The translations under genes were made by a program, and so were the position numbers. A stretch of DNA of 64,000 nucleotides from Dehalococcoidia bacterium (lineage in GTDB: Bacteria > Chloroflexota > Dehalococcoidia > UBA2979), in NCBI GenBank assembly GCA_963692775.1, contig OY839116.1, positions 3,016,161 through 3,080,160 on the forward strand, in the 5' to 3' direction. A model generated the notes under the pieces. It saw only the letters and a list, made by a program, of their open reading frames with translations, was not told the origin of the DNA and ran no database searches. Within the stretch, counting starts at the first letter, position 1; the number at the start of each line of letters is the position of its first letter. Positions 1 to 45,508 of the stretch are shown in pieces.

Positions 1-923
1 TGGCGGTTCCCGCTGGTGTAGAGCCTGAGGACCAGCGGCAGAACGCCCACGGAGTTGAAGATGCGTGGTGTCGTCAACGTCCGCATCGTGATGTGTCGGA
101 GGTCCGAGAACTCCTGGTTCAGCAAGAAGTCGGCACTCTCTCCATATTGCTCCCTCAGTCGCCACGACGCCCACAGATAGTGGCGCCCATCGATGCGCCC
201 GTCCGGGATGAACCGCTCGTCCGGTTGCCTGTGATCGAACGCGCCGCTGACAACTCGCGCCGTTTCCGCGAAGTAGAACATCCCCAGCCACGACCACACG
301 CCTGCGTGCTGGCCGACAAGGCGAGTGATCGGCTCCAGGCGGGGCGCAAGGTACTCGGCGGCGTCGCGGCGTGTGCGAAAGGGGCGGCGCTCGACCTCGA
401 CATCGCCGGGGAACGGCTGCGCGTAGCGCTCGTCGTAGAGGAGTTCTCGCGGCGGCTCGCGGTCGCCGTCCGGTTGGGCGCGCAGTCGCTCCAGGAAGGC
501 GCGGGCGAACTCGACGCCGTCGGGCGTGAGGCGGCGCAAGCGCTGGCGCTCGACGGAGTGGCGCCGCCCCGGCGTCTCGTCCGTGAGCCGCTCGAGTTCG
601 CGCGCGGTGGCGAGCGCCTCCTCCGTGAGCGTCGCGGGGGCCTCCACAGGCGGCGCTGCCGCGGGAACGAGCGGCTCCACGCCCATCAACTGCGAGGTCA
701 ACGCGTCGATCGCCTGGTTGATCCGCGCCAGCATCGTGCCCCGCCGCACCTTGTAGCCCGGTGGGCGGGATGCCTCCACGAACGCATCCCACGCTGGCGA
801 TCCGGGCTCCGCGTAGTCGCGCAGGTTGATGCGGCGGGGCGCGTCATCGCGCCCGAGCGCGTCGCGGATCTCGCGCAACCGGGCGAGCGCCTCCGCCCTC
901 GTGTCGTTCGCGCGCTCGTTCAT
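1..923 (-). CDS. hypothetical protein, third gene of the GHKL-ATPase operon. The 5' end is complete and the 3' end runs off the window edge (>=307 aa).
   Basis: Own translation of the minus strand from ATG at 921-923 (MNERANDTRAEALARLREIRDALGRDD...) is open to position 1 with high GC3 codon usage. Its start overlaps the upstream stop as ATGA (920-923). It is not in the ORF track because it is open-ended. The plus-strand ORF 93..953 is its antisense artefact. Confidence 0.55.
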   Translation of the reverse strand, partial: MNERANDTRAEALARLREIRDALGRDDAPRRINLRDYAEPGSPAWDAFVEASRPPGYKVRRGTMLARINQAIDALTSQLMGVEPLVPAAAPPVEAPATLTEEALATARELERLTDETPGRRHSVERQRLRRLTPDGVEFARAFLERLRAQPDGDREPPRELLYDERYAQPFPGDVEVERRPFRTRRDAAEYLAPRLEPITRLVGQHAGVWSWLGMFYFAETARVVSGAFDHRQPDERFIPDGRIDGRHYLWASWRLREQYGESADFLLNQEFSDLRHITMRTLTTPRIFNSVGVLPLVLRLYTSGNR

Positions 924-1696
924 GCCCGCCGCCCCTGCACGGCCTGGTTATAGGACTCGGCGGCATCGACGGCGTCGTCGGCGAACGCCTCCACGACCTT
1001 GTCGATCCAGCGGCTCGCGGCGGCGACCTCGCTCGCATCCGCGTCGCGGCTGAGGCGCGGCGGCTCCGCCTCCCGCAGCCGCGCCCGCGCCTGCTCGAAC
1101 CAGCCGCCCCACGGTCCCTCGCCGTCGTCGGGGTCCGCCCGTTCAACGAGCACGATGTGGCCCAGGATGGTGCGCAGCACGTCCGGCATGACGAGCGATC
1201 GGAACGCCGCGTCGCCGCGCACGATTTCGCTGATGCCGTCCACCTTCGGGTTGATCAGCAACTCGGGCAGGTCCATCCCGTCGCCGAAGTCCACGCGCCA
1301 CACCTCGTCGCCGAGATCCTCGCTCTCGCGCACCGCCAGCAGCGAGCGGCGCGGGAGCACCGGGCGGATGTTCGGCGCGTGCGCCAGCAGCAGGCCCGAT
1401 CCGTCGCCGGCTACGACGATCACGCGGAACTGCGCCGATTCGGGCACGTCCGTCAGCCGCCGCTCCTCGTCAGGCGGGGGCTCCGGCACGCCGGTCGTGC
1501 CGTAGTCCCAGCGCTGGACGGCGTTGCCGCGCCATGCCTCGACGCGGATGCGGGCGTCGGGCGGGAGGTCGTACGCCGACAGGTCGAGGTCGAGGTCGAA
1601 GACGGGCGCCTCGTCGCCGTCGGCCGGGCGCAGCGCGACCTGTGCATGGTCGCGCCGGATGCTCCTCCGTCCGGTGCGATTGAGATGCCGCCTCAC
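920..1696 (-). CDS. hypothetical protein (258 aa), middle gene of the GHKL-ATPase operon
   Basis: Listed ORF with coding-like composition. There are 4-nt overlaps with both neighbours (1693-1696 and 920-923). I recognise no motif. Confidence 0.6.
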   Translation of the reverse strand: MRRHLNRTGRRSIRRDHAQVALRPADGDEAPVFDLDLDLSAYDLPPDARIRVEAWRGNAVQRWDYGTTGVPEPPPDEERRLTDVPESAQFRVIVVAGDGSGLLLAHAPNIRPVLPRRSLLAVRESEDLGDEVWRVDFGDGMDLPELLINPKVDGISEIVRGDAAFRSLVMPDVLRTILGHIVLVERADPDDGEGPWGGWFEQARARLREAEPPRLSRDADASEVAAASRWIDKVVEAFADDAVDAAESYNQAVQGRRA

Positions 1697-3678
1697 GATG
1701 CCTCGTCCTCGCTTCCGCCGTCATCAGCGGCGACGATGGGCCGCACGTCGACGACGACGTCGCGGTCGTCGAGGCCGGTCACGTCGAGGCGGAAGTCGCT
1801 GCCTTCGACCCGGAAGCGCAGCTCATTCCCGGCCGGGGGCTCGACGCGGGCTGAGCGTTCGCGTATCTCCACCCCGCCATCGCCGATCACGAAGTCGGGC
1901 ACGCCCTGACGCGCTCCCCGCTCGAAGAGGTTGAAGGCGTTGCCACGGACGACGTCGTAGGCGAAGCGGAGCGTCCAGTCCGTACCGGCGAGGGTGTTCC
2001 CGCGCGGCGCTCGCAGCGAGAATCCTCCGGCGCTGCGGCTGACGTCGAACGGGCTGGGCGCCGTTCGCGGCGGGGGGTCGCTGACGCGTGATCGCCCAGG
2101 GCCGACGCGCGTGCTTGGCGTACGTCCCTTGATGGCGGTCGCGTCTGCGGGGAACAGGTCGGCGAGCGCGTCGAACTGCTGCTCGTCGGGCCGCTCGGCG
2201 AGGCGCTGGAGGAGCAGCACCGCGGCGCGGCGTACCTCCTGCACGCGAGCGTAACCGCCGACCCACCGATCCTTCAGGCGCTGCTCGTGCGGATCCCAGA
2301 CGACGTGCGCCGGGCCCTCCGCATCGCGCAGGAGGTGACCCAACTCGGACTCGCCGTCCACCAGCACGAGCGCGCGCGCCTTGTAGCGTTCGACGTGATC
2401 CATGCGCGGGATGCTGAGGTGGCCACGGATGAAGTAGTCGTGGCCCTTGCTGAGGTTCTCGGCCCGTTCGAAGTAGAGCCGGAAGCTGCCGGGCGTGCGC
2501 ACTGCCGCCCCGCGCCGCTGCACGCCGATCTCCAGATTGAACGCCAGCCGTTCACCGTTCTCGTAGCGCTCGCGCAGATCCTCTAGGTCCAGGCTCGCGA
2601 GCGCGTCACTAGTGCGCCTGGGGACCGGGAGGCGGATGTGCTCGCCGTCGCCGCGTCCGATTGCCCACTGGGCGAGCCTGATGGCGCCTGCCAGCGACTC
2701 GGGCGTCTCTTCGTCGTGCGCGTCCTGGCTGTCCAGCTGGGGGATGTCGACCACCTCGCGGTTGATGGTCTCAGCGTTGATGTAGCGCCGTCGCTCGCCC
2801 GGCGCGCTGATCTCGATGCTGAGGTCACCGCGCACGATCGGCAGGAAGTACTGCGCGATGACGGCGCGGGCGATCGCCGCCGAAGTGATGTCCTCGTGCG
2901 GATAGGGCACGACGACGGAGAGGCCGGGCTCGTCGAGCCGCCCGAGTCCGAAGTCCTCTATCGCCGTCAGCACGAACTCGGTGTCGTCGTCGGAGTCGAG
3001 GGGAAGCGGCAGCCACTGGTCGTCGCCGTGGTCGTCCGCGACCGCGAACTGACCGTAGGGCGGGTGCTTCACGCCGTCCACGGTGTGCGTCCTGAGCACG
3101 GCCATCCCCATCACCAGCACGTTGTCCTCGCCAGCGCGGCGCGTCGCGCCGACGTAGGCGTTGATCATCGAAGCGTCGGGGAAGACCCACTTGCCGAGGC
3201 CCCACGAGCCGCCGGCGTCCTCGTTCTTGGGGGAGATGCCGATGCTGCGGAAGAAGCCCCAGAAATGGTTCCCGGCTTCCTTCTCCTCGTTGGCCCGGAT
3301 GTCGCCCGCCAGACCGGTGGTCCCGAAGTCCTCGATGGCAAGCCATGTCATCGGCCGTCGCAGGCAGGCCCGCGCGGCGGCGATTGCCTCCCGCTCTGCC
3401 GCGTCAGCGTCCCGGTCCGCCTGGATGTGCGGCTCGAGGCCCTCGAGGTAGCGCGTGGCGGCGCTGGCCGGGAGCGCGCCGTCGTCGCCGCTGAACGTGA
3501 AGCGGACCAGCACGGTCTCGCCGTCCCGCCGGGCGTCGAGCGAGTTCTGCAGCGCCTCGCGCACGAGCCGCTCGGGCAGGTCGGCGGCGGTCGTGAAGAA
3601 CTCGCCCTGCACCGGGTTCTGATTGATTTCCCAAGGCTGCATGCGCCCGAACCGCCAGTGCGGTCGTCTCGATGCCAT
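1693..3678 (-). CDS. MORC/HATPase_c_3-like GHKL (Bergerat-fold) ATPase, 661 aa
   Basis: N-box LVREALQNSLDA, G1 box AIEDFGTTGLAGD and G2 box GGSWGLGKWVF all lie in the N-terminal 180 aa. The C-terminal ~450 aa is unassigned. The RBS is GGGGG 5 nt upstream of the ATG. Confidence 0.7.
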   Translation of the reverse strand: MASRRPHWRFGRMQPWEINQNPVQGEFFTTAADLPERLVREALQNSLDARRDGETVLVRFTFSGDDGALPASAATRYLEGLEPHIQADRDADAAEREAIAAARACLRRPMTWLAIEDFGTTGLAGDIRANEEKEAGNHFWGFFRSIGISPKNEDAGGSWGLGKWVFPDASMINAYVGATRRAGEDNVLVMGMAVLRTHTVDGVKHPPYGQFAVADDHGDDQWLPLPLDSDDDTEFVLTAIEDFGLGRLDEPGLSVVVPYPHEDITSAAIARAVIAQYFLPIVRGDLSIEISAPGERRRYINAETINREVVDIPQLDSQDAHDEETPESLAGAIRLAQWAIGRGDGEHIRLPVPRRTSDALASLDLEDLRERYENGERLAFNLEIGVQRRGAAVRTPGSFRLYFERAENLSKGHDYFIRGHLSIPRMDHVERYKARALVLVDGESELGHLLRDAEGPAHVVWDPHEQRLKDRWVGGYARVQEVRRAAVLLLQRLAERPDEQQFDALADLFPADATAIKGRTPSTRVGPGRSRVSDPPPRTAPSPFDVSRSAGGFSLRAPRGNTLAGTDWTLRFAYDVVRGNAFNLFERGARQGVPDFVIGDGGVEIRERSARVEPPAGNELRFRVEGSDFRLDVTGLDDRDVVVDVRPIVAADDGGSEDEAS

Positions 3679-39757: not shown

Positions 39758-39763
39758 CCTTCC

Positions 39764-40435
39764 TCAGCTGTTCGTGAAGCGCGGCTCGCGTCGCTTGATG
39801 AAGGCGGCGACGGCTTCCTTGTGGTCGGCGGTCATCATCGACATGCCCTCGGCGGCCAGCGAGTAGTGCATCACGTCGTTCGACATCGCGAGCAGCACGC
39901 GGTTGATCGAGCGCTTCGTCGAACGCACGGCGTAGGGCGCGCCCGCCGCCAGCTTCGAGGCGATCGCCAGCGCCTCGTCGAGCAGCTCGTCGTCCTCGAC
40001 GACCTTGAAGACGAGGCCGATCCGCTCGGCCGTCTCGGCGTCGAGGCGCTCGCCGGTCATCAGGTAGTACTTGGCGTGTTGCGGCCCGGCGAGCAGCGGC
40101 CACAGCAGCGCCCCGCCATCGCCGGCGGTGAGGCCGACCGAGACGTGCGGGTCCGCGAAGACGGCGCTGCGTCCGGCGATCACGATGTCGCCGAGCAGCG
40201 CCGTCGTGCAGCCGAAGCCGAGCGCGTAGCCCTTGACGGCGGTGATCACCGGCTTGTCGTTGTTGAGGAAGCCCTCGACGATCTCGCGCGGCTCGCCGAG
40301 CACGTCGAGCGGGCTCATCCCCTCGCCCCCGCCGCCGAGCCGCTGCTGCACGTCGGCGCCGGAGCAGAAGGAGCGCCCCGCGCCGGTAATCACGGCGGCG
40401 CGCGCTGGCGGGGCGTCTATGATGCGTGGCTGCAT
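39764..40435 (-). pseudogene. N-terminally truncated duplicate of the enoyl-CoA hydratase gene at 41724..42542
   Basis: About 97% DNA identity to 41724..~42347 over ~620 bp. It lacks the first ~60 codons and has no RBS. Confidence 0.6.
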
Positions 40436-41723: not shown

Positions 41724-42542
41724 CTAGCTGTTCGTGAAGCGCGGCTCGCGTCGCTCAATGAACGCTGCGACGGCTTCCTTGTGGTCGGCGGTCATCATCG
41801 ACATGCCCTCGGCGGCGAGCGAGTAGTGCATCACGTCGTTCGACATCGCGAGCAGCACGCGGTTGATCGAGCGCTTCGTCGAGCGCACGGCGTAGGGTGC
41901 GCCGGCCGCGAGCTTCGAGGCGATCGCCAACGCCTCGTCGAGCAGGTCGTCGTCCTCGACGACCTTGAAGACGAGGCCGATCCGCTCGGCGGTCTCGGCG
42001 TCGAGGCGCTCGCCGGTCATCAGGTAGTACTTGGCGTGCTGCGGCCCCGCGAGGAGCGGCCAGAGCAGCGCGCCGCCGTCGCCGGCGGTGAGGCCGACCG
42101 AGACGTGCGGGTCGGCGAAGACGGCGCTGCGCCCGGCGATCACGATGTCGCCGAGCAGCGCGGTGGTGCAACCGAAGCCGAGCGCGTAGCCCTTGACGGC
42201 GGTGATCACCGGCTTGTCGTTGTTGAGGAAGCCCTCGACGATCTCGCGCGGCTCGCCGAGCACGTCGAGCGGGCTCATCCCCTCGCCCCCGCCACCGAGC
42301 CGCTGCTGCACATCGGCGCCGGAGCAGAAGGAGCGACCGGCGCCCGTGATCACGGCGGCCAGCACGTCCGGATCCTCCTGGATATCGCCTGGCAGCTGTG
42401 CGAACTCCGCGTGCATCACGGCGGTCGAGGCGTTGTGCCGCTCCGGCCGGTTGAGCGTGATCAGCGCGACCCCATCGTCGCGCTTCTCGATCAACATCTC
42501 CGCATAGTTCGCCTGGTCGAGCGTCCTGGCCTCACGCGGCAT
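41724..42542 (-). CDS. enoyl-CoA hydratase/isomerase family protein (intact copy)
   Basis: Start refined to MPREARTLDQ with a GAGGAGG RBS. AVITGAGRSFCSGAD motif. Confidence 0.8.
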   Translation of the reverse strand: MPREARTLDQANYAEMLIEKRDDGVALITLNRPERHNASTAVMHAEFAQLPGDIQEDPDVLAAVITGAGRSFCSGADVQQRLGGGGEGMSPLDVLGEPREIVEGFLNNDKPVITAVKGYALGFGCTTALLGDIVIAGRSAVFADPHVSVGLTAGDGGALLWPLLAGPQHAKYYLMTGERLDAETAERIGLVFKVVEDDDLLDEALAIASKLAAGAPYAVRSTKRSINRVLLAMSNDVMHYSLAAEGMSMMTADHKEAVAAFIERREPRFTNS

Positions 42543-42676
42543 GTTGGTCCTCCTCGGTCGCGCGGGGGAGGGTAGCACTGGGGTGGGGGTGGGGCTGGAG
42601 CGCGCCGGCAGCCCGGAACCGATTCGTGCGGCAGAGGCTGGTTCTGTGGCGTACTACACCACTTCTACACACTATT

Positions 42677-42706
42677 GACAGAATAGACCGGAGGCTGCTA
42701 CATAGA
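42677..42706 (+). promoter_or_regulatory. putative sigma-70-like promoter for the island operon
   Basis: TTGACA-N18-TACATA about 25 nt upstream of the 42732 ATG. Adjacent CTACAC direct repeats. Confidence 0.4.
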
Positions 42707-42731
42707 AGGTCGCAATGAGAGGGAGAGCGGG

Positions 42732-43220
42732 ATGTCGGACCGAAATGGCGTGGGTGAGGACGGATTCCGCGCGGCCTTGGTTGGCCGCCGCGAGGCTCTT
42801 GCAGCGGAGCGCGAGGCGGTGAGCGCGCAGATCAGCAAGCGGGAGCGGAGGCGCTCCGAGATTGAGGAGCAGATCGGACACATCGACGCCCTGCTCGGCA
42901 ATGACGCGGCCGCCGACTCCGCTGCCACACCCCCGACTCCCGAGGCCCGCGACTCCGCTTCCGGCAACGAGACGGCCGATCTGGTGGTTGACCTGCTGCG
43001 CGAAGTCGGGGAGCCCCTCCACTACCGCGAGATCGAGCGGGAACTGCGCGAGCGTGGCGTCCTGAGGGTTGAGGGCAAGAACCCCGCCAACACGCTGCTG
43101 TCCCGATTCTTCAACGACCCACGGCTGTACAGGCCCCGCCGCGGCACCTACGCGCTGCGCAACGGGAGCGCCGCGCGATCGGTCGGTACGAGGCGTAGGC
43201 GCGCGCGCCGGGGGAAGTAG
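42732..43220 (+). CDS. coiled-coil protein with a C-terminal HARE-HTH/Mrr_N-like winged-helix domain (162 aa)
   Basis: N-terminal heptad-like charged helix. C-terminal EPLHYREIERELRERGVL...NPANTLLSRFFNDPRLYRPRRGTYALR pattern. RBS GAGGGAG. Confidence 0.6.
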   Translation: MSDRNGVGEDGFRAALVGRREALAAEREAVSAQISKRERRRSEIEEQIGHIDALLGNDAAADSAATPPTPEARDSASGNETADLVVDLLREVGEPLHYREIERELRERGVLRVEGKNPANTLLSRFFNDPRLYRPRRGTYALRNGSAARSVGTRRRRARRGK

Positions 43221-43222
43221 TC

Positions 43223-45505
43223 ATGGTACAGGCTCAGTGGCCGCTTCCCGGCACGGATCGCGCTACCCGTGAACTCCTTGAGGCGCTCTTGGAGGCAGAG
43301 ACAGAGGCTGACGTGCATGCATGTCTCGATCAGGCGGGCATGCTTGATGACTCGTACTGGCAGCCGTATGGAGGCGTGCAGAACAACAGCGGCACCTTCT
43401 TCAACCAACAGGCGAGCCCGCGAGGCGCGCTTGTCGAGAAGATTGTCAATAGCATCGACGCTGTCCTGATGGCCAAGGCTTTCGAGCACGCTGATTTGCT
43501 GAGTGGTTCCCCGCCAGATTCGATGTTTGGGGCTGCGGACCGCTATTTCGACATCCGCGACGGCCGCCTCTCCGAGGTTCCGGCGGGAGAACGGAGGGCG
43601 ATCGCTCGGCAAGCGGTCCAAGTCGTGCTCTCCGGCAACCGGAGCCCGGGTCGCCCGACCATCACGATCGCCGATCAGGGTGAGGGCCAGAACCCCGAGT
43701 CGTTCCCGGGCACCTTCCTGTCGCTGTCAGCCACGAACAAGATGAAGATCCCGTTCGTCCAAGGGAAGTTCAACATGGGTTCTGCGGGAGCAGTGCCGTT
43801 CTGTGGAGTGCAGCAGAACTACCAGTTGATCCTCTCTCGCAGGCACCCTGCGATACCGGACTCGAACGGACGTTGGGGATTCACGGTCGTGCGCCGTCGT
43901 CCCCCTAAGCCGGATGAGCGAGCTTCTCAGTTCGAGTATCTCGCTCCAGATGGTGCGGTGCTCAGTATCGGCGCAGACACCGTGCCGCTATGGAAGAACG
44001 GTGACGGAAGCACTTCGGAAGTAGGACACGGCAGCCTCGTACGACTGTACGAGTACGATATCCAAGAACGGACTGCCGCGAACTTTGACTTTTCCCGGAT
44101 GCTGAATCGCCGACTGTACCGGCTACCACTACCGATCCAGGTCATCGAGACCCGAGGCTTTAGGCGGGCCAACAACGAGGAAGTCGTCCCCGGCTTGGCT
44201 ACGCGACTCGATGAGGATACGTCCAATGATGTGGAACACGGCTTTCCCGTGTCCGACCGCATAAGGGTTGAGGGTGTCGGGTGGGTGCGCGTCTCACTGA
44301 TCCCGTTCCGTGAAGACGTGAACATCAGCCACTGGGTGACCGCATCTGAGAGCGTGATATTCACGGTGAATGGTCAAGCGCACGCATTCGAGGCACGGGA
44401 CTTCTTGCGGCGCGACACGCGAAGCGGGGCAAACTACCGTTATCTGGCGCAGAGCTTGCTAGTTGAGGTTGACTGCTCCGAACTAGGCAGCATCGAGCAG
44501 TTGTTCATGGGCTCTCGCGACCGAATGCGGGACGGCGAACAACGCACTGCGCTTCTGCGTGCACTTGCGGGGCACCTTCGTCGGCATAAGGGGCTCCGCG
44601 AGCTGAATCACAAGCGACGCGAGGCAGCGATACAGCGCTCAGTCAAGAGCAACGTCAAGACCAGTGAGATGTTTGAGAAAATGATCGCTGCGTCGCCCAC
44701 GATAGCGGCTTTGCTCAGCGGCGGAGCTATCCCAGCGCCCGTCGCCCCAACGCCGCCACCGGTTGTCGTTCCATTTGAGGGGCAGCGGTTCCCGACTTTC
44801 CTCAAGTGGGCCAAGGGCGGTCCTGTACGCGAGAAGCGCTGTCACCTTGGGTCGTACTGCCTGCTCGAGCTTGAGACGGATGCTTCCAACGACTTCCTCT
44901 CGCGATCGATCGAGCCCGGGATTCTTGATGTCGCCCCATCAGGCTGGTCAGTGAGCGAGAAGCTATGGGACGGGAGCCTTCAGATTCGGTTGGAACCACC
45001 GGTTGGCATCCAGTCGGGGCAGAAAATCCCGCTTAGGGTCACGCTCATGTCTGATGCTCCACCGGAAGTTCCAGATGTGCTCGAAGTCGAAGGTCGACTT
45101 GTGGTCGATCCACCTGTCGAGAGTCCGCCGCCGCCGCCGCCTCCTCCTCCCCGGCCGAAGGTTGCTCCACCAGAGATTCTGGAGGTGAGGAGGGATGCTT
45201 GGTCAGCTCACGACTTTGACGAGCATTCGATTGCTCGCGTGGACAAGGCGGATGGTAAGACCATCGTGTTCGTCAACATGGATAGTCAGGGGTTGGTCGC
45301 CTACGTACGCACCGAGCGGCAGCGAAGAAGCGAGCTTGAGGAGATGTACAAGCTTGCGGTGGCTCCCACCGCCATCTCACTGGAGCGGGCTGTTGCGGAC
45401 GAGGAAATCACGAGCGCGCAGGCGGACAAGGCTCTAGCCGCCGTAGGCGCTGTATTGCTCCCCGCCGTCGACTTCGCGGCGAAGGTCGCGCAAGAGGCGG
45501 AGTAG
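43223..45505 (+). CDS. MORC/HATPase_c_3-like GHKL ATPase, 760 aa, with long unassigned C-terminal region and a poly-Pro tract
   Basis: N-box ALVEKIVNSIDAV, G1 ITIADQGEGQN, G2 QGKFNMGSAGAV. Starts 2 nt after the upstream stop. GC is about 58%. Confidence 0.7.
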   Translation: MVQAQWPLPGTDRATRELLEALLEAETEADVHACLDQAGMLDDSYWQPYGGVQNNSGTFFNQQASPRGALVEKIVNSIDAVLMAKAFEHADLLSGSPPDSMFGAADRYFDIRDGRLSEVPAGERRAIARQAVQVVLSGNRSPGRPTITIADQGEGQNPESFPGTFLSLSATNKMKIPFVQGKFNMGSAGAVPFCGVQQNYQLILSRRHPAIPDSNGRWGFTVVRRRPPKPDERASQFEYLAPDGAVLSIGADTVPLWKNGDGSTSEVGHGSLVRLYEYDIQERTAANFDFSRMLNRRLYRLPLPIQVIETRGFRRANNEEVVPGLATRLDEDTSNDVEHGFPVSDRIRVEGVGWVRVSLIPFREDVNISHWVTASESVIFTVNGQAHAFEARDFLRRDTRSGANYRYLAQSLLVEVDCSELGSIEQLFMGSRDRMRDGEQRTALLRALAGHLRRHKGLRELNHKRREAAIQRSVKSNVKTSEMFEKMIAASPTIAALLSGGAIPAPVAPTPPPVVVPFEGQRFPTFLKWAKGGPVREKRCHLGSYCLLELETDASNDFLSRSIEPGILDVAPSGWSVSEKLWDGSLQIRLEPPVGIQSGQKIPLRVTLMSDAPPEVPDVLEVEGRLVVDPPVESPPPPPPPPPRPKVAPPEILEVRRDAWSAHDFDEHSIARVDKADGKTIVFVNMDSQGLVAYVRTERQRRSELEEMYKLAVAPTAISLERAVADEEITSAQADKALAAVGAVLLPAVDFAAKVAQEAE

Positions 45506-45508
45506 CCC

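What the first reader, a model, noticed from the sequence alone, without database searches (positions are those of the whole stretch)
42579..45508. Low-GC island: HARE-HTH-like coiled-coil protein tightly coupled to a 760-aa MORC-like GHKL ATPase (candidate novel defence/restriction-like module)
Composition (about 58% GC against 70%) marks 42.6-45.5 kb as foreign DNA inserted between an enoyl-CoA hydratase gene and a MaoC-like gene.

A sigma-70-like promoter (TTGACA-N18-TACATA) with CTACAC repeats drives a 162-aa protein with an N-terminal charged coiled coil and a C-terminal winged helix of the HARE-HTH/Mrr_N type (...EPLHYREIERELRERGVL...NTLLSRFFNDPRLYRPRRGTYALR). That domain is repeatedly linked to restriction systems and proposed to read DNA modification state.

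Its stop is 2 nt from the start of a 760-aa protein with all three GHKL motifs (EKIVNSIDAV / IADQGEGQ / GKFNMGSAG), a long unassigned C-terminal region and a poly-proline tract. No nuclease, helicase or methyltransferase accompanies them.

Prokaryotic MORC/paraMORC ATPases are predicted conflict-system components but largely lack experimental characterisation. This two-gene HTH-plus-MORC arrangement is, as far as I know, undescribed.

The window also contains a second, unrelated MORC-like ATPase operon (1-3678).
Basis: partly seen in the sequence, partly recalled or inferred. Interest (0 to 1): 0.75.

Follow-up and report, generated by a model that had tools for sequence, protein, structure and literature searches.

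The report
HARE-HTH plus MORC-like ATPase cassette
A 2.9-kb piece of foreign DNA carries a DNA-binding protein and a MORC-like ATPase from a large, unnamed, horizontally spread family. It looks like a candidate DNA-targeting defence module with no nuclease, but its function is untested.

Summary
Window 42579-45505 is a discrete foreign cassette: GC 62% against 70-72% in the flanks, and GC3 of 0.69-0.84 against 0.94-0.97 in host genes.

Two close relatives have 88-95% identical flanks but carry different genes at exactly this junction. One has a SLFN_AlbA_2 gene and the other a CHRD gene, so this is a variable cargo hotspot.

ORF A (162 aa) is a long helix, a linker, a HARE-HTH winged helix (Pfam match above cutoff) and a basic tail.

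The family has about 3,300 clusters at 50% identity, scattered across bacterial phyla and archaea. It is nearly absent from phages.

The upstream partner differs between clades: HARE-HTH, DndB, VapBC, HTH_17, methylase or a 73-aa protein. It is sometimes missing. Neighbours are often R-M, phosphorothioation or Abi/TA genes.

Best reading: a new paraMORC-like, DNA-directed conflict module. The defence role and the mechanism are inferred, not shown.

The parts
42579..45505 (+). Whole foreign cassette (variable cargo of the ECH/MaoC hotspot)
   Evidence: Homology to L092 (flanks about 95% identical) and L093 (about 88%) stops at 42578 and resumes at 45506 (45525 for L093). In those genomes the slot holds 1161 bp (a SLFN_AlbA_2 gene) or 1148 bp (a CHRD gene) instead. 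GC is 62.3% against 70-72% in the flanks. GC3 is 0.69-0.84 against 0.94-0.97 in host genes.
42654..42670 (+). Two CTACAC direct repeats, 11 nt start to start, next to the -35 box (candidate operator)
   Evidence: Read directly from the sequence. Paired C(C/T)ACAC repeats in the same position occur in cassettes L001, L010 and L011; compare WIN CACACTATTGACAG with L011 CACACTATTGGACAG. The operator role is inferred.
42675..42704 (+). Sigma-70-like promoter: TTGACA, 18-nt spacer, TACATA, ending 27 nt before the ORF A ATG
   Evidence: It was not called by the generic scan. Equivalent boxes are conserved in L002 (TTGACA-18-TATAAT), L091 (TTGACA-18-TAAAAT) and L012 (TTGACA-16-TATCCT).
42732..43220 (+). 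ORF A, 162 aa: long N-terminal helix (aa 6-61), disordered linker (61-79), HARE-HTH winged helix (80-142), basic tail (RSVGTRRRRARRGK)
   Evidence: Pfam HARE-HTH E=6e-7, 30.1 bits against a cutoff of 25.9. 72 homologs were found, most carrying precomputed PF05066. AF2 pLDDT is 78.5, with 95-98 over the helix. Foldseek returns winged-helix hits including Rok 5zuz and RNAP delta 8x6g_E.
43210..43225 (+). Coupling junction: GGGGGAAG (SD-like), TAG stop of ORF A, 2 nt, ATG of ORF B
   Evidence: Sequence. The same 2-nt gap (or a 4-nt overlap) is found in L001, L002, L010, L011, L090 and L091.
43223..43408 (+). ORF B aa 1-62: N-terminal helical strap
   Evidence: The AF2 model has helices 12-24, 28-37 and 56-62. 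W46 and G50 are invariant. A role in ATP-dependent dimerisation is inferred by analogy with GHL ATPases.
43409..44092 (+). ORF B aa ~63-290: Bergerat-fold (GHKL) ATPase domain. N box E72/N76/D79, G1 D151-x-G-E-G-Q, G2 G181-K-F-N-x-G-x-x-G189, G270-S/T
44093..44482 (+). ORF B aa ~291-420: transducer (S5-fold-like) domain with invariant N383-G-Q-x-H387
44483..44779 (+). ORF B aa ~421-519: conserved SRDRMR motif and helical linker (helices 439-499)
   Evidence: Function unknown.
44780..45112 (+). ORF B aa ~520-630: two Ig-like beta-sandwich domains, with conserved ETDAxND...R
45113..45505 (+). ORF B aa ~631-760: poly-proline linker, small beta unit and long C-terminal helices (689-759), then the stop codon
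   Evidence: Constitutive dimerisation through these helices is inferred. The stop codon lies 3 nt from the convergent MaoC stop.

Best explanation
This is a self-contained, horizontally acquired two-gene operon sitting in a variable-cargo hotspot.

**Gene 1.** It encodes a DNA-binding adaptor or sensor. Its parts are a long N-terminal helix that probably dimerises, a flexible linker, a HARE-HTH winged helix and a basic tail.

**Gene 2.** It is translationally coupled to gene 1. It encodes a catalytically intact GHKL + transducer ATPase of the MORC/MutL (GHL) type, with Ig-like and helical C-terminal domains and no recognisable nuclease.

**Proposed mechanism.** The adaptor binds DNA, possibly reading foreign or differently modified DNA, and it may also bind the CTACAC repeats of its own promoter. 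It recruits or licenses the ATPase. The ATPase, held as a dimer by its C-terminal helices, closes its N-terminal gate on ATP binding. The closed dimer clamps, loops or compacts the bound DNA and so blocks replication or expression of invading DNA.

**What is shown:**
- the foreign origin of the cassette and the hotspot;
- the domain folds and the conserved ATPase motifs;
- the conserved gene pairing;
- the patchy distribution across phyla and the conflict-type neighbours.

**What is inferred:**
- a physical interaction between A and B;
- DNA clamping;
- the defence phenotype;
- what feature of DNA is recognised.

In sister clades other modules occupy the HARE-HTH slot: DndB (ParB fold), HTH_17 proteins, DNA methylases, VapBC and a 73-aa protein. 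The ATPase is therefore the constant engine and the upstream gene is the exchangeable specificity or effector module.
For: **Foreign cassette and hotspot**
- the identical junction carries three different cargoes in related genomes.
- GC3 is atypical, and the cassette is 4-13 GC points below its locus in 6 of 6 other genomes.

**Fold**
- AF2 pLDDT 85.9, pTM 0.84.
- The ATP-binding motifs are invariant.
- A distant family member passes Pfam HATPase_c_3, the MORC/MutL-type model, at 26.1 bits against a cutoff of 25.

**Adaptor**
-.

**Pairing**
- HARE-HTH lies directly upstream with a 2-nt gap or 4-nt overlap in WIN, L001, L002, L010, L011, L090 and L091. It is also upstream in L012 and in the distant L021.
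- About 17 further pairs share a contig.
- Partner type follows the ATPase tree.

**Mobility and distribution**
- At least 463 of 185,579 species, spread across many bacterial phyla and archaea.
- 3,346 clusters at 50% identity with uniform full-length architecture.
- 0 of 50,697 phages, 4 IMG/VR contigs, and 8 non-mobilizable plasmids.

**Conflict-type context**
- DndB partner in 14 loci, VapBC in 10, and methylases.
- Plasmid loci lie next to Ssp-like phosphorothioation genes, SIR2, DUF262, integrases and a HATPase_c_3 'kinase'.
- In a sample of 150 neighbours, the recurrent families are mostly methylase, REase, Abi or TA domains.
- GmrSD_N, TIR_2, and AAA_21+DUF4276 lie nearby.

**Established knowledge**
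- GHL ATPases (MutL, MORC, GyrB, Hsp90) act as ATP-gated dimeric clamps.
- Iyer et al. 2008 (PMC2292703) predicted GHKL+S5 paraMORCs in R-M-like systems.
Against: - There is no experimental datum for any family member.
- PADLOC-DB has no model for either protein.
- No nuclease or other effector domain was found in the cassette, so how it would harm an invader is unknown.
- Several cassettes sit among ordinary metabolic genes with no adjacent defence genes: the window itself and L089, and partly L090.
- The partner is missing in 3 of 11 HARE-clade loci although the ATPase there is full length. The adaptor is therefore not obligatory.
- The neighbour census has no matched background control.
- The mad2, mad3 and mad8 hits may just reflect generic R-M-like proteins.
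- Contact between A and B was not modelled.
Confidence: 0.55

Rival explanations
1. It is a modification-dependent or R-M-like system in which the cassette supplies only the sensor and motor. The DNA-damaging effector or the protective modification is encoded elsewhere in the genome. It would resemble SspE or DndFGH, which depend on unlinked or neighbouring modification genes.
For: - HARE-HTH is typically fused to restriction endonucleases and is proposed to read DNA modification (PMC3417536).
- Sister clades pair the ATPase with DndB, DNA methylases or a PIN nuclease.
- Plasmid members sit beside Ssp-like phosphorothioation genes.
- Iyer et al. 2008 propose that paraMORCs loop DNA for an associated nuclease.
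Against: - The cassette moves as a 2-gene unit into unrelated metabolic neighbourhoods. That is hard to reconcile with dependence on a host-specific unlinked partner.
- No methylase or nuclease lies within the cassette in the window.
Confidence: 0.2
2. It is a chromatin or nucleoid module rather than immunity. ORF A would act like a xenogeneic silencer, with an oligomerisation helix, a linker and a winged helix as in Rok. The MORC-like ATPase would remodel or compact host or horizontally acquired DNA to regulate genes.
For: - The architecture of ORF A.
- A weak Pfam WH_Rok match, and the Rok DNA-binding domain among the top Foldseek hits.
- Conserved operator-like repeats in its own promoter.
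- Eukaryotic MORCs are silencers (established knowledge).
- The cassette contains no nuclease.
Against: - WH_Rok scores 18.3 bits, below its cutoff of 27.6.
- A sporadic distribution below 1% of species, a hotspot location and low GC are not what a core nucleoid protein shows.
- The partners in sister clades (VapBC, DndB, methylases) point to conflict systems.
Confidence: 0.12
3. It is a selfish or mobile-element maintenance cassette, for example an addiction, partition or integration helper, with no benefit to the host.
For: - Precise cargo replacement at a hotspot.
- TA (VapBC) genes are tightly linked in one clade.
- Integrases or transposases lie nearby in some loci.
Against: - No recombinase, repeats or replication genes occur in or next to the cassette in the window.
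- The family is essentially absent from phages and rare on plasmids, and none of those plasmids is mobilizable.
Confidence: 0.08
4. It is an Hsp90-like protein chaperone or a histidine-kinase-like signalling ATPase, with an HTH regulator.
For: The top Foldseek hits are Hsp90, HtpG and GRP94 over about 480 columns.
Against: - There is no HisKA or receiver partner.
- The partners and neighbours are DNA-related.
- The TM-scores to Hsp90 are only about 0.3.
Confidence: 0.03

Closest known systems
Prokaryotic MORC / paraMORC1-5 GHKL+S5 ATPases of R-M-like systems (Iyer, Abhiman & Aravind 2008, PMC2292703)
   Same: - An N-terminal GHKL domain with intact ATP motifs, followed by a transducer domain and a family-specific C-terminal extension.
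- A sporadic, laterally mobile distribution in bacteria and archaea.
- Association with DNA methylases, nucleases and other conflict genes.
- MORC3 is the best structural match.
   Different: - No Pfam HATPase_c_3 or HATPase_c match for the window protein or for 42 of 43 aligned members.
- No linked superfamily-II helicase.
- The C-terminal extension is Ig-like beta-sandwiches plus helices, not a RecB-like, TIR or HxH domain.
- The partner set (HARE-HTH, DndB, VapBC, a 73-aa protein) is not described in that paper: a text search found no 'DndB' and only one figure-legend 'HTH'.
Shedu type I-D / paraMORC3 (VcSduA; PMC12137116)
   Same: A GHKL ATPase in a small, experimentally validated anti-phage system. 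A dimeric clamp model has been proposed for it.
   Different: VcSduA is a single protein with a C-terminal DUF4263 PD-(D/E)xK nuclease. ORF B has no DUF4263 match and no nuclease fold, and it has a separate HARE-HTH partner.
Eukaryotic MORC2/MORC3/SMCHD1 silencing ATPases
   Same: - An ATPase module combined with a separate 'reader' of nucleic-acid or chromatin state.
- No nuclease.
   Different: - About 10-13% sequence identity.
- The C-terminal domains differ.
- The context is a prokaryotic accessory gene.
HARE-HTH proteins (Pfam PF05066: RNAP delta subunit N-domain, ASXL, Mrr-type restriction enzymes)
   Same: The ORF A C-terminal domain matches PF05066 above cutoff. It folds as a winged helix that hits RNAP delta chains.
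   Different: It is a stand-alone small protein with an N-terminal long helix and a basic tail. It is not fused to a nuclease and is not an RNAP subunit. It is coupled to a GHKL ATPase.
PT-dependent restriction modules SspFGH, SspE, DndFGH and PbeABCD (PMC8092258, PMC6459918)
   Same: - Family members occur beside Ssp-like or DndB genes.
- PbeABCD and SspFGH block phage DNA replication without visible DNA degradation.
   Different: - The published components are Walker-A, FtsK-like, helicase-like, SMC-like or DUF262 proteins, not GHKL.
- The window has no dnd or ssp genes near the cassette.

Membership tests
GHKL (Bergerat-fold) ATPase superfamily | Motif I/N box (ExxxNxxD), motif II/G1 (DxGxG), motif III/G2 (glycine-rich ATP lid) | tested here: met
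   E72-x3-N76-x2-D79, D151-Q-G-E-G-Q and G181-K-F-N-M-G-S-A-G189 are invariant or at least 90% conserved in 43 homologs.
GHKL (Bergerat-fold) ATPase superfamily | Bergerat alpha/beta sandwich fold | tested here: met
   [not shown]
GHL subgroup (GHKL + S5-fold transducer: MutL, MORC, GyrB, Hsp90) | A second, transducer domain directly after the GHKL domain | tested here: met
   [not shown]
GHL subgroup (GHKL + S5-fold transducer: MutL, MORC, GyrB, Hsp90) | A transducer residue contacting the ATP gamma-phosphate (Lys, Arg or a QTK-type loop) | not testable with these tools
   Candidates are the invariant R311 and N383-G-Q-x-H387. Model coordinates and a nucleotide complex were not available.
MORC family proper / Pfam HATPase_c_3 (PF13589) | A sequence match to the MORC/MutL-type GHKL model | tested here: not met
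   The window protein has no Pfam hit at E<=1. Only 1 of 43 aligned members reaches E 0.004. One distant plasmid member does pass, at 26.1 bits against a cutoff of 25. So the relationship is distant.
MORC family proper / Pfam HATPase_c_3 (PF13589) | The MORC-specific signature motif (Iyer 2008) | not tested
   The motif is not given in the text that was read.
paraMORC1-5 (Iyer 2008) | Operon linkage with SF-II helicase, REase-fold or Vsr endonuclease, or DNA methylase | tested here: not met
   The window cassette has only the HARE-HTH gene. Across the family some loci have methylases or REase-like genes, but there is no consistent helicase.
paraMORC1-5 (Iyer 2008) | Family-specific C-terminal domain (RecB-like nuclease, TIR, HxH domain) | tested here: not met
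   The C-terminal half is made of Ig-like beta-sandwiches and helices. There is no Pfam hit.
paraMORC1-5 (Iyer 2008) | Sequence or profile similarity to paraMORC seed proteins | not tested
HARE-HTH (PF05066) | A profile match above the gathering score | tested here: met
   30.1 bits against 25.9, residues 87-144. PF05066 is precomputed on most of the 72 homologs.
HARE-HTH (PF05066) | A winged-helix fold resembling the RNAP delta N-domain | tested here: inconclusive
   The model has a winged helix at aa 80-142. Foldseek hits include RNAP delta chains 8x6g_E and 6zca_D, but at E 0.04-0.4, alongside many generic winged helices.
Known or candidate defence systems in PADLOC-DB v2.0.0 | An HMM match to a component | tested here: not met
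   No hit for ORF A or ORF B at E<=1, and none for four distant family members.
Shedu (DUF4263 nuclease core) | A DUF4263 PD-(D/E)xK nuclease domain | tested here: not met
   [not shown]
Rok-type xenogeneic silencers | WH_Rok (PF23159) DNA-binding domain | tested here: not met
   18.3 bits against a cutoff of 27.6. The resemblance is limited to architecture and the generic winged-helix fold.

The most novel reading that the evidence does not exclude
This family may be a prokaryotic, nuclease-free 'MORC-type' immune or silencing system. An ATP-gated GHL clamp would be aimed at foreign or unmodified DNA by interchangeable reader modules: HARE-HTH here, and DndB/ParB-fold, HTH_17, methylase or VapBC in sister clades. 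The clamp would neutralise that DNA by entrapment or compaction rather than cleavage. That would make it a bacterial and archaeal counterpart, and possibly an evolutionary relative, of eukaryotic MORC/SMCHD1 silencing.
Probability: 0.2. Interest if true: 0.85.

Novelty: new variant of a known kind. Interest (0 to 1): 0.62.

Why it matters
GHKL+S5 ATPases were predicted in 2008 to be parts of prokaryotic conflict systems. In the literature searched here, only the nuclease-fused paraMORC3/Shedu type has been tested as a defence.

This family is large: about 3,300 clusters at 50% identity, in many bacterial phyla and in archaea. It is invisible to Pfam, NCBIfam and PADLOC, and every named source seen calls it 'hypothetical protein'.

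The cassette is compact (2.9 kb), has its own promoter and no nuclease. Its natural partner swaps look like exchangeable DNA readers.

If it restricts invaders, it would add a new, cloneable defence system. It would also offer a simple bacterial model of how MORC-type clamps are targeted to DNA.

The three-allele hotspot is a ready-made natural comparison.

Tried and rejected
- **Sequence-level annotation of ORF B.** Pfam, NCBIfam, PADLOC and PHROGs gave nothing, and neither did phmmer or a profile hmmsearch against PDB sequences.
- **A shared docking module among partner classes.** hhalign of all partner families against each other and against ORF A was negative, with probabilities below 4%. 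That idea was dropped.
- **The ORF at 1693-3678 as a paralog.** hhalign against the family profile gave 0.5% probability, so it is unrelated at this level.
- **PbeABCD and SspFGH as the identity of the family.** Their published domain descriptions (helicase, SMC, Walker A, FtsK-like) do not fit, and PADLOC gave no hit.
- **MADS membership of neighbours.** The mad2, mad3 and mad8 hits are probably generic R-M-like proteins. The MADS authors themselves say MAD1, 2 and 5 resemble R-M components and regulators.
- **Flanking repeats, att sites, tRNA or integrase.** None was found at the cassette ends. The only tRNAs are at 27.4 and 60.8 kb.
- **Generic promoter and terminator scan.** No calls. This was superseded by comparing the upstream regions of homologous cassettes.
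- **Source contig.** An exact look-up of ORF A found no gene record.
- **The HARE-HTH paper** (PMC3272235) is not held in the library.

Full report
**1. The observation**

The two ORFs are exactly as described: 42732-43220 (162 aa) and 43223-45505 (760 aa), on the + strand, with 2 nt between the stop and the next start. GC falls from 70-75% to 58-62% across ORF B. The whole segment 42579-45505 is 62.3% GC, and ORF A alone is 69.9%. Third-position GC separates the cassette from the host much more sharply: host genes (ECH, MaoC, fumarase) are 0.94-0.97, ORF A is 0.84 and ORF B is 0.69.

The quoted promoter is in the sequence: TTGACA at 42675-42680, an 18-nt spacer, and TACATA at 42699-42704. So are two CTACAC copies, at 42654 and 42665. 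A generic scan did not call the promoter.

**2. It is foreign DNA in a cargo hotspot**

I searched for orthologs of the flanking MaoC-like gene and fetched two close relatives.

- In L092 the MaoC protein is 96% identical and the flanks are about 95% identical at the nucleotide level.
- In L093 the protein is 89% identical and the flanks about 88%.
- In both, homology to the window runs up to window position 42578 on one side. It resumes at 45506 (45525 for L093) on the other.
- Between those points L092 has 1,161 bp encoding a SLFN_AlbA_2 protein. L093 has 1,148 bp encoding a CHRD protein on the other strand.

No flanking repeats, recombinase or tRNA were found, so how the exchange happens is unknown.

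**3. ORF A**

Pfam HARE-HTH matches above its gathering score, at 30.1 bits against 25.9. A sub-threshold WH_Rok match also appears. I found 72 homologs, most about 160 aa long and carrying PF05066.

The AF2 model (pLDDT 78.5) has these parts:
- a single long helix, residues 6-61, at pLDDT 95-98;
- a disordered linker, residues 61-79;
- a winged helix, residues 80-142;
- a basic tail.

Foldseek returns winged helices, including the Rok DNA-binding domain and RNAP delta chains, at weak E-values. The end of the helix (HIDALLG) and the winged helix are the conserved parts.

**4. ORF B**

No sequence library recognises it.

An alignment of 43 homologs shows invariant or near-invariant Bergerat motifs:
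- E72-x3-N76-x2-D79;
- D151-x-G-E-G-Q;
- G181-K-F-N-x-G-x-x-G189.

One distant member on a Hymenobacter plasmid passes Pfam HATPase_c_3 at 26.1 bits against a cutoff of 25. That gives a thin sequence bridge to the MORC/MutL-type model. Of the 43 aligned members, only 1 reaches E 0.004.

So 'MORC-like' is right at the fold level. Membership of the MORC family, or of a named paraMORC family, is not established.

**5. The family**

At least 1,379 clusters at 90% identity match the single sequence, all of them unannotated. A profile search over 1.84 billion representatives finds 3,346 clusters at E<=1e-3 and 1,273 at E<=1e-30. Almost all align over profile positions 3-746 in one stretch, so the full architecture is conserved as a unit.

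In one-genome-per-species data at least 463 of 185,579 species carry it. They span Chloroflexota, Acidobacteriota, Gemmatimonadota, Bacteroidota, Bacillota, Proteobacteria, Actinomycetota, CPR groups, and methanogenic and DPANN archaea.

It is absent from 50,697 GenBank phages. It is present on 4 of 2.9 million IMG/VR contigs and on 8 of 72,556 plasmids, none of them mobilizable.

This sparse, cross-domain pattern, together with sub-host GC in 7 of 7 cassettes examined, indicates horizontal mobility of a cellular accessory gene.

**6. Is the pair conserved?**

Yes, within its clade. A HARE-HTH gene lies directly upstream, with a 2-nt gap or a 4-nt overlap, in WIN, L001, L002, L010, L011, L090 and L091. 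It is also upstream in L012, where the ATPase is truncated, and in the distant L021.

One more pair has adjacent locus tags.

Three loci of the same clade have a full-length ATPase without the partner: L008 (next to IS elements), L009 and L089. No downstream gene is conserved.

**7. The partner slot is modular**

Across 87 loci the gene immediately upstream on the same strand falls into recurrent classes:

| Partner class | Loci |
|---|---|
| DndB (PF14072) | 14 |
| AbrB-type VapB + PIN VapC pair | 10 |
| Conserved ~73-aa protein | 10 |
| HARE-HTH | 7 |
| Unknown ~340-aa protein | 7 |
| 231-aa HTH_17 protein | 5 |
| DNA methylases | 3-4 |

Single cases include a helicase-REase fusion.

Partner classes largely follow clades on a neighbour-joining tree of the ATPase, with some swaps. 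They share no common module.

**8. Neighbourhoods**

The cassettes sit in different neighbourhoods in different genomes. These are often metabolic genes, with defence-type genes a few kb away in several:
- GmrSD_N;
- AAA_21 + DUF4276;
- TIR_2;
- N6_N4 methylase;
- NB-ARC;
- Fic.

Annotated plasmid loci are denser:
- an integrase, SIR2, DUF262 and a PAPS reductase in Hymenobacter;
- SspA/B/C/D-like genes, a methylase and a HATPase_c_3+HATPase_c 'kinase' in Devosia and Ensifer;
- a divergent methylase in Halogeometricum.

I took a random sample of 150 neighbour ORFs from 63 loci. The Pfam families seen more than once were mostly methylases, DndB, AbiEii, DUF2357, PDDEXK_7, Mrr_N, HATPase_c_3, PIN and AAA_21. 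PADLOC reported MTase_II, mad2, mad3 and mad8. There is no matched background for this sample, so it is supportive rather than statistical.

**9. Regulation**

Upstream regions of homologous cassettes from distant genomes keep three features:
- a TTGACA-type -35 box;
- a TAnnnn -10 box, 27-33 nt before the start codon;
- in four cassettes, two C(C/T)ACAC repeats about one helical turn apart, next to the -35.

The cassette therefore brings its own promoter. The repeats are a plausible operator, perhaps for ORF A itself. That role is inferred.

**10. Mechanism**

From established knowledge, GHL ATPases (MutL, MORC, GyrB, Hsp90) are dimers that close an N-terminal gate on ATP binding. Iyer et al. 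2008 predicted that prokaryotic GHKL+S5 proteins loop or remodel DNA in R-M-like systems.

My best explanation is this. ORF A binds DNA and recruits or licenses ORF B. ORF B then clamps or compacts the DNA in an ATP-dependent way and blocks invading DNA. The exchangeable upstream gene supplies specificity or an effector.

- Shown: folds, motifs, pairing, mobility and context.
- Inferred: A-B contact, DNA clamping, the target feature and the phenotype.

The main weakness is that no effector has been found. Conserved polar patches in the C-terminal half are unexplained: SRDRMR, ETDAxND...R and FVNMD.

**11. Comparison and novelty**

The closest concept is the paraMORC radiation (PMC2292703). The closest tested system is the GHKL-nuclease Shedu/paraMORC3 protein VcSduA (PMC12137116). 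The closest structures are eukaryotic MORC3, MORC2 and SMCHD1.

This family differs in four ways:
- it is undetectable by the GHKL sequence models;
- its C-terminal half is Ig-like and helical;
- it lacks a nuclease or helicase;
- it has a distinct partner repertoire.

No paper in the held library links HARE-HTH or DndB with a GHKL ATPase, or describes a bacterial MORC-type anti-phage system of this kind. The 2012 HARE-HTH paper could not be read.

I rate it a new variant of a known kind.

**12. Verdict**

It is a well-delimited, cloneable two-gene cassette from a large uncharacterised family, with good circumstantial links to conflict systems. There is no functional proof and no identified effector.

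Interest is 0.62. Confidence in the DNA-directed conflict-module reading is about 0.55. Confidence in the specific nuclease-free clamp or silencing mechanism is about 0.2.

Noticed in passing
window 920-3678 (- strand): The 661-aa ORF at 1693-3678 carries Bergerat-type motifs (EALQNSLDA, IEDFGTTG, GSWGLGKW). Its N-terminal 130 residues match the PADLOC candidate-system protein PDC-M33A (E 2e-16). It has no Pfam or PDB sequence hit and is unrelated to the ORF B family by hhalign. It overlaps a 258-aa unknown ORF (920-1696) by 4 nt. This would be a second, different GHKL candidate defence operon in the same window.
   Followed up: partly
window 39761-40400 vs 41726-42395: A direct duplication, about 95-96% identical with 1960-nt spacing, copies the 3' two-thirds of the enoyl-CoA hydratase gene that borders the cassette. 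The relative L092 has only a ~180-bp remnant. This suggests local rearrangement next to the hotspot.
   Followed up: partly
L092 4370-5530; L093 1483-2630: These are the alternative cargoes at the identical MaoC/ECH junction. L092 has a 384-aa SLFN_AlbA_2 (PF04326) protein and L093 has a 298-aa CHRD (PF07452) protein. Neither hits PADLOC. Both segments are also lower in GC (63% and 67%) than the flanks.
   Followed up: partly
L013, L014, L016, L038, L042, L045, L050, L056, L066, L082 (upstream of the GHKL gene): A conserved three-gene arrangement of an AbrB/SpoVT-type antitoxin, a PIN (VapC) toxin and the GHKL ATPase occurs in ten species from many phyla, with 10-36 nt gaps. It could be a linked nuclease effector or a hitch-hiking addiction module.
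   Followed up: partly
L046, L051, L061-L064, L069, L076, L085, L086: A conserved ~73-aa protein (RFxRLAxxRTNxVLKxLxxLGNCSN..Y.YT....KIF..IE) overlaps the GHKL start codon by 4 nt, mainly in CPR bacteria and a DPANN archaeon. It has no Pfam or PADLOC match.
   Followed up: partly
L099 (Devosia plasmid) and L101 (Ensifer plasmid): A family member sits beside a ~780-aa 'sensor histidine kinase' that has HATPase_c_3 at its N-terminus and HATPase_c at its C-terminus, a ~640-680-aa unknown protein, and SspABCD-like phosphorothioation genes. This may be a larger multi-GHKL system.
   Followed up: partly
L030 8458-9570; L041 1747-4215 (-): Second, weaker hits to the family profile (E 7e-27 and 6e-51) lie within a few kb of the main GHKL gene. 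These may be paralogous GHKL genes in the same locus.
   Followed up: no
L012 5538-8148: In this Tepidiformaceae MAG the HARE-HTH gene is intact. The ATPase ORF only starts about 220 nt further downstream, although tblastn similarity begins right after the partner. This is probably a frameshift or pseudogene.
   Followed up: no
window 42654-42680 and the equivalent regions of L001, L010, L011: Paired C(C/T)ACAC repeats directly upstream of the -35 box are conserved between cassettes whose proteins are only about 50-60% identical. Compare WIN CACACTATTGACAG with L011 CACACTATTGGACAG. They are a likely operator.
   Followed up: partly
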